DNA of 64,000 bases, from positions 398,102,001 through 398,166,000 of the forward strand of contig OZ024740.1 of NCBI GenBank assembly GCA_964016885.1, written 5' to 3'. The notes beneath the pieces were generated by a model that saw only the letters and a program-made list of their open reading frames with translations, did no database searches and was not told the DNA's origin. How positions within the stretch are numbered: position 1 is the stretch's first letter; each line of letters begins with the position of its first letter. This document shows, piece by piece, positions 40,292 through 62,156 of this stretch. The translations under genes were made by a program, and so were the position numbers. Source of the DNA: Eledone cirrhosa. Its lineage: Eukaryota.

Positions 40292-40362
40292 TCGCACCAA
40301 CCTGAGGCATATGGCCCTTAAAGCGATGAAATGCCTGGGACGGTTGGAGGGTCACTGATGAA
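40292..40362 (+). ncRNA. Non-circularly permuted hammerhead-like motif, copy 1
   Basis: TCGC-A-CCAACC-TG-AGGCAT-A-TGGCCCT-TAAA-GCGA-T-GAA-ATGCCT-GGGAC-GGTTGG-AGGGTCA-CTGATGA-A. Confidence 0.75.
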
Positions 40363-41061
40363 GGACTTACTTTTTCATATGCACCACCATTTGCAACGCG
40401 CAGCCATCATTATTATCATATTTACACATAATTTTTCTTCTGCTGCCACCCGTCTGTTTCGTTCTTTGTACCTTTTACTCTTTCTCGTTCTTTGTACCTT
40501 TTACCCTTTCTAGCAGTCTCTCTCTCTCTGTTAGCCTCCTCCTCAACTTTCACTCACTCATTCTCTGTCACTACCTCTCCTCCTCCTCTTTCCTCCTCCT
40601 CCTTCAAGTTTGACCTGTGTGTAATTCTTTTCTCGCGCGGTCTTGGTCAAGCTGGTATGGAATTTTTTTCTCTCTCTCTCTTTCGTCTGCGACTTCACAA
40701 AACTTATGTTTACCGAATTCGTAGACCAGACCCCTTCTTCTTCTTCTTCTTCTTCTTCTTCTTCTTCTTCTTCTTCTTCTTCTTCTTCTTCTTCTTCTTC
40801 TTCTTCTTCTTCTTCTTCTTCTTCTTCTTCTTCTTCTTCTTCTTTCTTCCCCCCGTTAGACCTGTGCGAAATTCCTTCCTTGCTCACATTTCAACCAGGT
40901 TTGATGGTCTTTTGTCTCTTGTTCACGATTTCACCGAGTTTATATTCATAGAGATCTGGGACTTGTCTATTTCTTCTCACTTTCCGTTGCTTAAACCATT
41001 TTGTTTGTTACCCTAACGTCCCCTTTATTTACGTGTCCCAACGACTTTTTTTAGCCGTTGT

Positions 41062-41132
41062 TCGCACCAACCTGAGGCATATGGCCCTTAAAGCGATGAA
41101 ATGCCTGGGACGGTTGGAGGGTCACTGATGAA
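41062..41132 (+). ncRNA. Non-circularly permuted hammerhead-like motif, copy 2
   Basis: Identical to 40292-40362, offset by 770 nt. Confidence 0.75.
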
Positions 41133-41214
41133 GGACTTACTTTTTCATATGCACCACCATTTGCAACGCGCAGCCATCATTATTATCATATATATATATA
41201 TATATATATATATA

Positions 41215-41842
41215 TATATAAAGAATTAGTATATCTACCAACATATGTATACAGATGCATACCTATGTTAGCAAATATATATATTTTGTCTTAGTAACTT
41301 TGTGGTTCTATGCAAGGGGATGCAGAACAATTATATGAAAGACGTAAATAAGAAAGTTATGAAAATTGACTTACTTACTAAAATTTCACTCCAACTCTGT
41401 ATACATATGTTGGTAGATATACTAATTCTTTATAATTATCTCCAAATTATTTGTTGAGCAAAACTTGCCGAAATTACTACTGTGATTAATAGTAGTGGCT
41501 AGGCTCTGTCTTAATAGCACCCCCACTCCTCGCTGATTAACCTCAGTGTCACGTGATAGATTCTTTTGAATTTGCCACTTGACCAAGTAGGCAGTGAATT
41601 TTTCAATGTCTTGGAATCTAGCCCCGCTCGCTTTTTTCCATCCACTGAATTATTTTTATATAAGTTCCCAGTGTCCCCGCATTGCCTGGAAGCTTAGCTG
41701 AGAATAGACTCCCTGATGACGTAAGGCTTCTCTATGGATACGCTCCGTAACCATATTTATCCCCTTACAGAAACTAATTAGTTGGAGTGAAATTTTAGTA
41801 AGTAAGTCAATCTTCATAACTTTCTTATTTACGTCTTTCATA
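41215..41842 (+). mobile_element. PLE-type remnant with two nested inverted segments
   Basis: 41221-41255 is the reverse complement of 41396-41430. 41333-41396 is the reverse complement of 41780-41843. Confidence 0.7.
41708..41788 (+). ncRNA. Type I hammerhead ribozyme
   Basis: ACTCC-CTGATGA-C-GTAAGG...CCTTAC-A-GAA-ACTAATTAGT-T-GGAGT. Palindromic stem III, GUU site, C.A mismatch at 10.1/11.1. Confidence 0.72.
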
Positions 41843-59660: not shown

Positions 59661-59969
59661 TATATATATATATATATATATATATATATATATATATATA
59701 TATATATATATATATATATACATACATACATATATATATATATATATATATATATATATATATATATATATATATACATACATACATATATATATATATA
59801 TATATATATATATATATATATATATTTATATATATATATATATATATATATATATATATATATATATATATATATATATATATATATATATATATATATA
59901 TATATATTTATATATAATATAATGAAATGACAGGAGGCTGGATTTGTGTAAATCCTTGAAAGGTTTATT

Positions 59970-60027
59970 ATACTATGATCATTTCAATGACAGGGTTCCG
60001 TATGAATCCGGTGATATCATCAGGTAT
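59970..60027 (-). ncRNA. Minimal type I hammerhead at the end of a minus-strand PLE-like remnant (about 59925-60660)
   Basis: Minus strand: ATAC-CTGATGA-(imperfect stem II)-GAA-ATGATCAT-A-GTAT. Confidence 0.62.
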
Positions 60028-62085
60028 TCGAAATATAATACCTGAATGTAATAGATGAAATCCATGGGGCTGAAAATCGATGACCCGAGAGCGACCGCTA
60101 TCCAGCACCTTCTACCTTAGCCGGTCGCCCTCGAGTGACGTGGCTAAAGCCTACAGTGTGCTACTACCTGTCAGATAAAGGAAAACAGAAAGGGATGGGA
60201 ACATAAGTTAGCCTTAATCTCATGCCACAAGACAAAAGAAAGAAAGGAAGAAGAGAGAAGAAGGGGGAAGGAAGAAGAAGAGAAGCCAGGGTTAATGTCA
60301 GCTATAAGAAGAAAGACAGAAAGAAAGAGGAGGAAAGGTCGGTATTACAGTCAGGCCAGGATTGTCGCGAAGAAATTTTTTTTTTTTTTTTTTTTCATTC
60401 TACGGGACCCGTATCTAAACAACTACTACCGGTCAGATATAGGCAAACAAAAAGGGGAAGGAAGATAAGTCTGCGGGAGGAAGACAGAAAGAAGGGAGAA
60501 GAGAAGGAAGAAAAGGAAGAAGTAGAAAAGTCAGGGTTGATGGCTATAAGAAGGAAGATAGAAAGAAAGAGGAAGAAAGGTCGATATTAATGTCAGACTA
60601 CAGTCAGGCTAGGAGTGGCGCGAGAAAATTTTCACAGGGACCTGTATCTTAGCAGAGGTGAATATAGTGGGGGTCAGTGTGTTATAATGTGTGAGCAGAA
60701 GATTGGAACGTTACTTTTTTGTTTAGACTTATATACATATATACATACAGATATACATACAGATATACATATATATATACATATATATATATGTATATAC
60801 ATATATATATATATACATATATATATATGTATATACATATATATATACATATATATATATATGTATATACATATATATATATATACATATATATATATAT
60901 ATATATATATATATATATATATATATATATATATATATATATATGTATATATATATATATATATATATATATATATATATATATATATATATATATATTT
61001 ACATATATATATATATTTACATATATATATATATATATATATATATATATATATATATATATATATATATATATATATATATATATATACACATATATAT
61101 ATATTTACACACACATATATATATATATATATATATATATATACAATACATAGATATATAAAATTATAACATACAAATAATATAAATACCCCGCTCCCGA
61201 AAATAAGTGTGCTAAGTACTTATGTGGAACACTTTCGAAAGTAAGCGATCTTAGAATAGTCGCCTGTGGATATGTGACTCGCGGAAAACCCCATCTCACT
61301 TAACCTTTCCCTATAAATATATAAATATGTGGATGCAGGCATGATGTCCATGTGTGAGTATGTTTGTGTGTGTATGTGTATGTTCATGTTCATGTGTACA
61401 TATATATTTGTATATTTGTATATTTGTATATGTATCTATATATATATATTTGTGTGTGTATATATATATATATATATATATATTTACTATATATATATAT
61501 ATATGACTAATCACTTTTCTCTCTCTCTCTCTCTCTCTCTCACTCTCTCTCTCTCTCTCTCTCTCTATATATATATATATATATATATATATATATATAT
61601 ATATATATATATACAAACATATATACAAATACATAGTAACATTACAAATCAGAGACCATATATAAATGAATAAATAACCAAGGTTCTATACATCAATATA
61701 TTATTTAATCGATTTACATATGTTTCTTTCAAATACAAGAGGAGGCAAAAATGTTATTCCTCTTTAGAGAAATAGTCAGAATTAATAGCTAATATAAAAA
61801 AGATATTTATTTACCAACCCCATATTATCATGACTACAGACACGAGGGTTTGTAAGACAAACAAGTTTTATATATATTTTAGGAAAAGCGTTAAAAAATT
61901 ATGGAAGGCTAGATATGTAAAAAACAATTAATGCTATCTCTTTCTGAATTCAAATGAAAGACATGTAAATCAGTTAAATAATGTGATAATGTATTGAACC
62001 TTGGTAATATATATATATATATATATATATATATATATATATATATATATATATATATATTATTATTATTACTATATATATATGC

Positions 62086-62156
62086 TCGCACCAACCTGAG
62101 GTATATGGCCTTTAATGCGACGAAATACCTACGACGGTTGGAAGGCCACTGATGAG
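62086..62156 (+). ncRNA. Non-circularly permuted hammerhead-like motif, divergent copy 3
   Basis: TCGCA-CCAACC-TG-AGGTAT-A-TGGCCTT-TAA-TGCGA-C-GAA-ATACCT-ACGAC-GGTTGG-AAGGCCA-CTGATGA-G, in a 130-bp remnant between (TA)n tracts. Confidence 0.78.

What the first reader, a model, noticed from the sequence alone, without database searches (positions are those of the whole stretch)
40292..62156. Non-circularly permuted (strand-swapped) hammerhead ribozyme family with covariation in all three stems
Seen: copies at 40292-40362, 41062-41132 and 62086-62156 hold all hammerhead core elements in the order A-C-B, i.e. [stem III 3' strand, AUA, stem I], then [GAAA, stem III 5' strand], then [stem I partner, CUGAUGA]. 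Established: types I, II and III are the circular orders BCA, CAB and ABC, so this order must be pseudoknotted. Seen: the 40/41-kb and 62-kb versions covary. Stem III is AGGCAU/AUGCCU versus AGGUAU/AUACCU. Stem I is UGGCCCU/AGGGUCA versus UGGCCUU/AAGGCCA. The 10.1-11.1 pair is A-U versus G-C. Two extra helices are conserved: UCGC(A)/(U)GCGA, which could stack as the body of stem II, and CCAACC/GGUUGG, which bridges the distal ends of stems I/II and stem III. Inference: an active ribozyme of unusual topology carried by a (TA)n-inserting PLE-like element. I recall rare non-circular hammerhead permutations being reported; I cannot check whether this family is among them.
Basis: partly seen in the sequence, partly recalled or inferred. 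Interest (0 to 1): 0.93.

Follow-up and report, generated by a model that had tools for sequence, protein, structure and literature searches.

The report
Rewired hammerhead ribozyme in animal retrotransposons
Thousands of copies of a small jumping element in an animal genome carry a predicted self-cutting RNA whose parts are wired in an unusual order; similar rewired RNAs appear at the ends of a retrotransposon group thought to lack them, but cutting has not been tested.

Summary
The motif is real: 3 copies in the window and 2,237 exact pattern matches in the 3.0-Gb genome. Its block order is type SGC, described by Eckert et al. 2023, whose SGC examples came from metatranscriptome/metagenome searches and none from genomes of known organisms.

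It differs from their form. The core's 3' side gives at most one stem II pair. Across 12 representative copies, 12 of 35 pairs change on both sides.

The carrier is a non-coding tandem element of 510-770 nt with Penelope-like hallmarks: (TA)n targets, two fixed 3' ends, inverted truncated copies. It is a retrozyme with a non-type-I ribozyme.

Read by eye, published Naiad retrotransposon ends, said to lack canonical hammerheads, hold this same architecture (two octopus elements, one ostracod) or type CSG. That covers 6 of 8 'half-core' cases.

Not shown: cleavage, expression, or the helper element. 5' truncations do not peak at the cut.

The parts
39762..41189 (+). 5'-truncated tandem insertion of the non-coding element (partial monomer, full 770-nt monomer, tail), between (TA)n runs
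40265..40366 (+). Copy 1: whole predicted ribozyme domain, seven helices, predicted cut between 40311 and 40312
40265..40268 (+). Side helix, 5' strand (pairs with 40363-40366); the RNA chain enters and leaves the domain here
   Evidence: kept in this genome without covariation; changed letters in Naiad_Ovul and Naiad-4_Dst, by eye
40269..40290 (+). 7-bp hairpin with U-rich loop, second arm of the four-way junction
   Evidence: 4 of 7 pairs change on both sides; one position is unpaired in 8 of 12 rows
40292..40295 (+). 5'-supplied strand of stem II body (pairs with 40323-40326)
   Evidence: 1 of 4 pairs changes on both sides, 100% of cells paired
40297..40302 (+). Stem I-II interaction helix, 5' strand (pairs with 40342-40347)
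   Evidence: 2 of 6 pairs change on both sides
40305..40318 (+). Block S: stem III 3' strand to U16.1 (40310), A17 (40311), stem I strand 1.1-1.7
40323..40336 (+). Block G: stem II 11.x strand, 11.1 (40327), G12-A14, stem III 5' strand from A15.1
40348..40362 (+). Block C: stem I 2.x strand, core C3-A9 (40355-40361), candidate 10.1 (40362)
   Evidence: core invariant in 12 representatives except N7
41035..41136 (+). Copy 2: identical domain one monomer downstream; predicted cut between 41081 and 41082
41137..41189 (+). 3' tail holding the two fixed element ends (about +69 and about +110 from the cut); this copy ends at the longer one
62083..62211 (+). Copy 3: 5'-truncated fragment of subfamily B in a (TA)n run; lacks the hairpin and the side-helix 5' strand; predicted cut between 62105 and 62106

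Best explanation
A non-circularly permuted hammerhead of S-G-C order with a split C block. The chain enters through a side helix, forms a hairpin, supplies the body of stem II and one strand of the stem I-II helix, then runs through the cleavage site, the G block, the partner strands and the C3-A9 core, and leaves through the side helix. Stem II is therefore built at a four-way junction. The ribozyme sits once per monomer in a non-autonomous tandem retroelement (a retrozyme) that probably arose from the 3' end of a Naiad Penelope-like element. Inferred cycle: read-through transcripts self-cleave to monomers, which may be circularised. A Penelope-like RT/GIY-YIG protein nicks (TA)n DNA and starts reverse transcription at one of two internal sites in the tail, giving tandem, truncated and inverted copies. 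SHOWN here: sequence, copy number, compensated helices, element anatomy. READ BY EYE: the Naiad parallels. INFERRED: catalysis (about 0.8), circles (about 0.5), Penelope-like mobilisation (about 0.9), Naiad origin (about 0.7).
For: Core and G block are invariant in 12 representatives except at N7, the hammerhead's free position (the N7 convention is in Eckert). Five-helix core: 97.2% of cells paired, 8 of 24 pairs change on both sides, each helix at least once, 0 of 500 shuffles as high. Seven helices: 94.2%, 12 of 35 pairs, 0 of 500; slid controls 29-49% paired. Both extra helices in register arise in 105 of 20,000 shuffles of the 5' segment. Geometry matches Eckert's tested SGC variant: 7-bp stem I, short linker to stem II, interaction helix abutting stem I. 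The same seven-helix layout with different letters is in Naiad_Ovul, Naiad_Obim and Naiad-4_Dst, by eye; in 4_Dst the whole of stem II comes from the 5' strand. Motif more conserved than body between distant families (identity 0.68-0.75 versus 0.44-0.50 overall, 0.61-0.65 in aligned columns). Of 83 3' ends, 47 are long, 34 short, 2 other; 73 are followed by a TA run; 21 of 21 inverted pairs have one short and one longer end. This matches the PLE tail (Craig) and two-site internal initiation (Frangieh).
Against: No cleavage test. 5' truncations do not peak at the cut: 2 observed versus 0.87 expected at -3..+3, P 0.22. 30 of 109 copies carry a stem I mismatch, and subfamily D has a mismatch at the end of the interaction helix. 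The side helix shows no covariation in this genome and is one base out of register in subfamily B. The 12 rows are related and the structure was drawn from them, so the shuffle result is not a probability. No Naiad was found in this genome. Between close families B and D the motif is less conserved than the body (0.82 versus 0.89). Monomers are only 39-45% self-paired as circles, unlike the highly self-paired animal retrozymes. Only 1 of 9 predicted Xenopus retrozymes cleaved in vitro, and a Poseidon hammerhead needed its protein.
Confidence: 0.75

Rival explanations
1. The fold is real but cleavage is slow, protein-gated or absent. It serves mainly as a structural signal (protein binding, RT positioning or pausing), and copies come from uncut read-through RNA.
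For: 5' ends are enriched over the whole domain (22 versus 10.1 expected, P 0.0008) and over +13..+55 (15 versus 5.9), not at the cut. In the Poseidon element PAc, cleavage was dispensable for insertion in vitro and needed the protein. A mismatch-bearing subfamily still amplified (30 of 109 copies).
Against: A circular or re-ligated template would also give no stop at the cut. Catalytic positions stay fixed across families whose bodies are about half identical and across phyla.
Confidence: 0.15
2. An ordinary type-SGC hammerhead with a one-pair stem II; the 5' helices are incidental, or cleavage needs a dimer as in minimal PLE hammerheads.
For: The stem II body and interaction helix show no two-sided change among 109 copies of subfamilies A-D. 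Two-sided changes in the stem II body rest on one event, subfamily F.
Against: Subfamily F compensates both helices and the hairpin. Naiad_Ovul and Naiad-4_Dst rebuild all of them with other letters (by eye).
Confidence: 0.06
3. Same ribozyme, but the element is derived from or moved by a Neptune or Hydra element rather than a Naiad; the likeness to Naiad ends reflects module swapping.
For: All 70 of 150 scored GIY-YIG hits examined have a C-terminal endonuclease. A young Hydra-like family has many intact 713-aa frames. Craig reports cephalopod Naiads as long inactive, while these copies are near-identical.
Against: No monomer similarity to the Neptune or Hydra loci examined beyond nested copies of the element itself. 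The hairpin loop and flanks resemble Naiad_Ovul (by eye). Origin and present helper may differ.
Confidence: 0.25
4. Chance complementarity in a young repeat.
For: High identity within subfamilies makes conservation alone uninformative. Nested folding z-scores are unremarkable, -1.07 to +0.10.
Against: Seven compensated or conserved helices plus a full core, recurring in unrelated animals. The folding program cannot model pseudoknots.
Confidence: 0.02

Closest known systems
Type-SGC hammerhead (HRIMA-1 and SGC variant; Eckert et al. 2023, PMC10085705)
   Same: Block order S-G-C, pseudoknotted core, short linker from stem I to stem II, a helix joining stems I and II next to the stem I 2.x strand.
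   Different: There stem II (5-6 bp) and the interaction strand follow the core at the 3' end. Here they lie at the 5' end, and a hairpin and side helix make a four-way junction, which breaks their assumption that block C is uninterrupted. [quoted passage not shown]
Type-CSG hammerhead (Eckert et al. 2023)
   Same: Same cyclic order of strands, with the interaction strand leading into block S.
   Different: Chain opened at a different point; known from two metagenomic sequences. Five Naiad ends read here by eye fit it cleanly.
Animal non-LTR retrozymes (Cervera and de la Pena 2020, PMC7229834; Li et al. 2026, 10.64898/2026.07.22.740005)
   Same: Non-coding tandem monomers with one hammerhead each, thousands of copies, proposed PLE dependence.
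   Different: Those carry type I hammerheads and are mostly 150-450 nt and highly self-paired. These are 510-770 nt, two-thirds pyrimidine, weakly self-paired, and show the PLE tail and inversions directly.
Naiad Penelope-like elements (Craig et al. 2021, PMC8557442)
   Same: (TA)n targets, 5' truncation, inverted copies, 30-40-bp tail at one end; the same ribozyme layout about 95 nt from the 3' end of Naiad_Ovul and Naiad_Obim.
   Different: Naiads are autonomous and were described as lacking canonical hammerheads; the element here encodes no RT or endonuclease.

Membership tests
Hammerhead ribozyme | Core C3-A9 and G12-A15.1 conserved | tested here: met
   Invariant in 12 representatives except N7; 108-109 of 109 copies per position, apart from the indel column
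Hammerhead ribozyme | U16.1-A15.1 pair, H17, stems I and III adjoining the core | tested here: met
   triplet AUA; a 1.6-2.6 mismatch in 30 of 109 copies
Hammerhead ribozyme | Stem II closed by 10.1-11.1 and continuing from the core | tested here: inconclusive
   Only 1 contiguous pair from the 3' side in 12 of 12 rows; 4 more from the 5' strand
Hammerhead ribozyme | Site-specific self-cleavage after H17 | not testable with these tools
   No assay; genomic 5' ends do not peak at the cut
Rfam hammerhead families | Match to a covariance model | tested here: not met
   2 weak non-hammerhead hits for 40200-40480 at E up to 10; none among the 150 of 209 rows shown for the window
Type-SGC hammerhead (Eckert 2023) | Block order S, G, C | tested here: met
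   descriptor
Type-SGC hammerhead (Eckert 2023) | Helix joining stems I and II | tested here: met
   6 bp, 2 pairs changing on both sides; partner strand is 5', not 3'
Type-SGC hammerhead (Eckert 2023) | Uninterrupted block C with at least 2 further stem II pairs after G10.1-C11.1 (their RNAMotif pattern) | tested here: not met
   Pattern read; 1 pair in 12 of 12 rows
Animal non-LTR retrozyme | Tandem monomers, one hammerhead per unit | tested here: met
   Spacing 610-770 nt and 512-536 nt (11 of 12 intervals); arrays of 5 and of at least 13 units
Animal non-LTR retrozyme | No protein-coding capacity | tested here: met
   Monomer alignment full of frame-shifting indels and microsatellites; hits to PLE proteins lie outside the element blocks
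Animal non-LTR retrozyme | Type I hammerhead | tested here: not met
   Order is S-G-C
Animal non-LTR retrozyme | Expressed as linear and circular monomer RNA | not testable with these tools
   No RNA data could be examined
PLE-mobilised element | 30-40-bp tail at one end, inverted 5'-truncated copies, microsatellite target | tested here: met
   Two 3' ends about 40-45 nt apart; 21 of 21 inverted pairs use both; 73 of 83 ends followed by TA
Naiad-derived element | Homology to an autonomous Naiad in the same genome | tested here: inconclusive
   No Naiad among 70 of 150 scored GIY-YIG hits (10,595 candidates) or in 947 kb of loci; no Naiad query was available
Naiad-derived element | Same ribozyme domain as a published Naiad 3' end | tested here: met
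   By eye only: Naiad_Ovul, Naiad_Obim, Naiad-4_Dst

The most novel reading that the evidence does not exclude
Non-circularly permuted hammerheads are the normal ribozyme of many Naiad retrotransposons across nematodes, chelicerates, crustaceans and cephalopods, which is why the clade seemed to lack hammerheads. One form is an undescribed four-way-junction topology in which the catalytic core no longer leads into stem II. It is active and drives a multi-family retrozyme radiation of thousands of copies in this genome.
Probability: 0.6. Interest if true: 0.9.

Novelty: new variant of a known kind. Interest (0 to 1): 0.82.

Why it matters
It would move non-circular hammerhead permutations from a metatranscriptome rarity into animal genomes at high copy number. 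It would add a topology outside the six-permutation scheme, because block C is split. It would answer a stated puzzle: Craig et al. found catalytic half-cores in Naiads that fitted no descriptor and concluded that canonical hammerheads were absent. Retrozyme and PLE surveys that use type I descriptors would miss these elements entirely. Each claim can be tested with a 120-nt transcript.

Tried and rejected
5' truncation as a footprint of cleavage: rejected. In 159 of 171 blocks (12 left out as too short or with odd 3' ends) the counts were 2 versus 0.87 expected at -3..+3, 7 versus 2.70 at -9..+12, and 22 versus 10.13 over the whole domain. Inversion ends are not independent, and TA microhomology blurs positions. 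The hazard lines overcounted exposure and were discarded. A genome-wide count of truncation points was not obtained.

Expression: no RNA holder listed; this is no evidence either way.

Other organisms: contigs of runs X5, X6 and X7 show subfamily-D-type letters, and X5, X6 and X8 show head-to-tail joints. Linkage cannot be read from those tables, so they were not used for covariation.

Search for a Naiad helper failed. Tail-like hits near Hydra loci were TA artefacts. Copies beside Neptune elements (L139, L148) sit in flanking TA runs, not in the 3' UTR. The RNA model R1 could not be run on the genome, so more distant families are probably missed.

Nested folding gave z from -1.07 to +0.10. 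It recovers the interaction helix and stem III in most folds but cannot show pseudoknots.

Earlier scan findings: none.

Literature: searches listed no paper whose title or abstract start links permuted hammerheads to Naiads, PLEs or animal genomes; one search showed 20 of 38 papers. Subscription journals are largely outside the library, and supplements of the 2026 preprint were not seen.
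Full report
OBSERVATION. The three copies are at the stated coordinates, and two half-motif searches found exactly these three against shuffle means of 0.03 and 0.00. 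The window lies in a 3.0-Gb, 1,796-contig genome, where one pattern gave 1,126 + 1,111 exact matches and the reversed control none. That pattern excludes subfamilies D-H, so 2,237 is a lower bound. Rfam gave no hammerhead: none in the 150 of 209 rows shown for the window, and two weak unrelated hits for 40200-40480. The organism was not identified; likeness to octopus Naiad ends suggests a cephalopod (inference).

WHAT IS KNOWN. Eckert et al. 2023 (PMC10085705; main text read through the discussion; supplement parts 1, 8, 19 and passages) divide hammerheads into blocks C, G and S and show that the non-circular orders SGC and CSG cleave. The order here is SGC. [quoted passage not shown] Their block C is assumed uninterrupted, and their search needs at least two stem II pairs beyond G10.1-C11.1.

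STRUCTURE. In 109 of 117 copies with an intact 5' part (subfamilies A-D), all helices are kept but vary little. A descriptor scan of 684 kb of held loci found diverged versions. Searches with them showed multi-copy subfamilies D, F, E and H, each with 40 scored hits at 98-100%. On 12 representatives the five-helix core has 97.2% of cells paired and 8 of 24 pairs changing on both sides, at least one in every helix. The core is invariant except N7. The 3' side supplies only one stem II pair in 12 of 12 rows; the body of stem II and the stem I-II helix come from the 5' side. Extending the alignment revealed a 7-bp hairpin directly 5' of that strand (4 pairs change on both sides; one position unpaired in 8 of 12 rows). 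It also revealed a 4-bp side helix joining the segment before the hairpin to the bases after 10.1 (no covariation here; one base out of register in the two B rows). For all seven helices: 94.2% paired, 12 of 35 pairs, 0 of 500 shuffles, slid controls 29-49%. The rows are related and the structure came from them, so this is support, not a P value. The model is a four-way junction inside stem II through which the chain enters and leaves.

INDEPENDENT SUPPORT FROM NAIADS. Craig et al. 2021 (PMC8557442; passages; supplement parts 1, 24, 25 and passages) report that Naiads lack canonical hammerheads, and flag 8 families as 'HHR_half_core'. I read 16 of the 54 Naiad consensus ends by eye; nothing was computed on them, and 11 were named from file order. 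Of the 8 flagged: Naiad_Ovul and Naiad-4_Dst have all seven helices of the window motif with different letters, and in 4_Dst stem II comes wholly from the 5' strand while the core runs straight into the side helix. Parc, 3_Nbra, Hpol and Smim are clean type CSG. Esco has S-G-C order and a 5' interaction helix but an unclear stem II. 3_Dst could not be parsed. Of 8 unflagged: Obim matches Ovul, Hcon is CSG and Lpol is SGC with a 3' interaction helix, Sdum has S-G-C order with a decayed core, and nothing was seen in Ppac, Omin, Adux or 1_Skow. Total: 9 clear, 2 partial, 5 none or unparsed. The hairpin loop and flanks of Ovul resemble those of the families here, which suggests homology rather than convergence (by eye).

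THE ELEMENT. Copies occur as head-to-tail monomers of 610-770 nt or 512-536 nt. They are pyrimidine-rich, without a kept reading frame, and 39-45% self-paired as circles. Of 83 3' ends, 47 fall near +110 and 34 near +69 from the cut, 2 elsewhere; 73 run into (TA)n; all 21 inverted pairs have one short and one longer end. Craig describes this tail at one end of PLE insertions. Frangieh et al. 2024 (PMC11167929; parts 1-2 of 4) show that it comes from two internal start sites of reverse transcription. Tandem non-coding units with one hammerhead each define animal retrozymes (Cervera and de la Pena 2020, passages; Li et al. 2026, parts 1-3 of 5), but those carry type I hammerheads.

AGAINST AND OPEN. 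Cleavage is untested. 5' truncations are not concentrated at the cut (2 versus 0.87 expected) but are about twofold enriched over the whole domain (22 versus 10.1), which fits RT stalling on a stable fold or a circular template and does not show cleavage. No helper was identified. All 70 GIY-YIG loci examined, of 150 scored and 10,595 candidates, have a C-terminal endonuclease; 947 kb of loci held no Naiad motif; and a young Hydra-like family with intact frames shares no sequence with the monomer. Craig calls cephalopod Naiads long inactive, whereas these copies are young, so origin and current helper may differ. Predicted retrozymes often fail in vitro (1 of 9), and one PLE hammerhead needed its protein.

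MECHANISM. Most likely, read-through RNA folds the permuted hammerhead once per unit and cuts after A17 (inferred). Monomers may be circularised by a host ligase, as proposed for other animal retrozymes (inferred). A PLE protein nicks (TA)n and primes in the tail (anatomy shown, enzyme inferred). Run-off, jumps or a second priming give truncated, tandem and inverted copies (shown as products).

NOVELTY AND VERDICT. The block order is known. The split-C four-way-junction form, its presence at high copy number in an animal genome as a retrozyme, and permuted hammerheads as the explanation of Naiad half-cores were not found in nine literature searches (listings only, apart from the papers named and passages of PMC13725137 and PMC10162972). 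It works like a type-SGC hammerhead but fails one defining feature of that family as published. New variant of a known kind; interest 0.82.

Noticed in passing
window 25264 (+), 25181 (-), 52928 (-), 46719 (-), 45589 (-): Minimal type I hammerhead-like motifs of the ordinary PLE kind, from a relaxed descriptor; the pair near 25.2 kb is an inverted repeat.
   Followed up: partly
window 1982-2515 (+) and 56220-58502 (-): Fragments of Penelope-like elements that resemble the Hydra clade protein text seen; weak GIY-YIG hit.
   Followed up: partly
window 9374-14337 (+) and 15611-20260 (+): Two broken LINE copies in tandem with an ORF1-like frame, endonuclease and RT frames; clade not tested.
   Followed up: no
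window 22045-23001 (-): C-terminal part of another non-LTR retrotransposon, with a second piece at 20662-21084.
   Followed up: no
L221-L240 and the list: A young Hydra-like PLE family with many intact 713-aa frames at 96-98% identity; no hammerhead core was shared near its ends in the sequence held.
   Followed up: partly
Craig 2021 supplement, File S5: Five Naiad ends (four nematode, one spider) read as clean type-CSG hammerheads, a type known from two metagenomic sequences.
   Followed up: partly
Craig 2021 supplement, Naiad-1_Skow 3' end: A G+C-rich, apparently structured 3' region without a hammerhead core; could be another RNA motif.
   Followed up: no
L139 2042-2658 (-), L148 1150-1670 (-): Copies of the element sit in TA runs directly beside Neptune element ends in 2 of 20 long-ORF loci, more than genome-wide density suggests; shared TA targeting may explain it.
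   Followed up: partly
window 40724-40848 (+): A (TTC)n expansion inside the monomer explains why this unit is 770 nt rather than about 630-680.
   Followed up: yes
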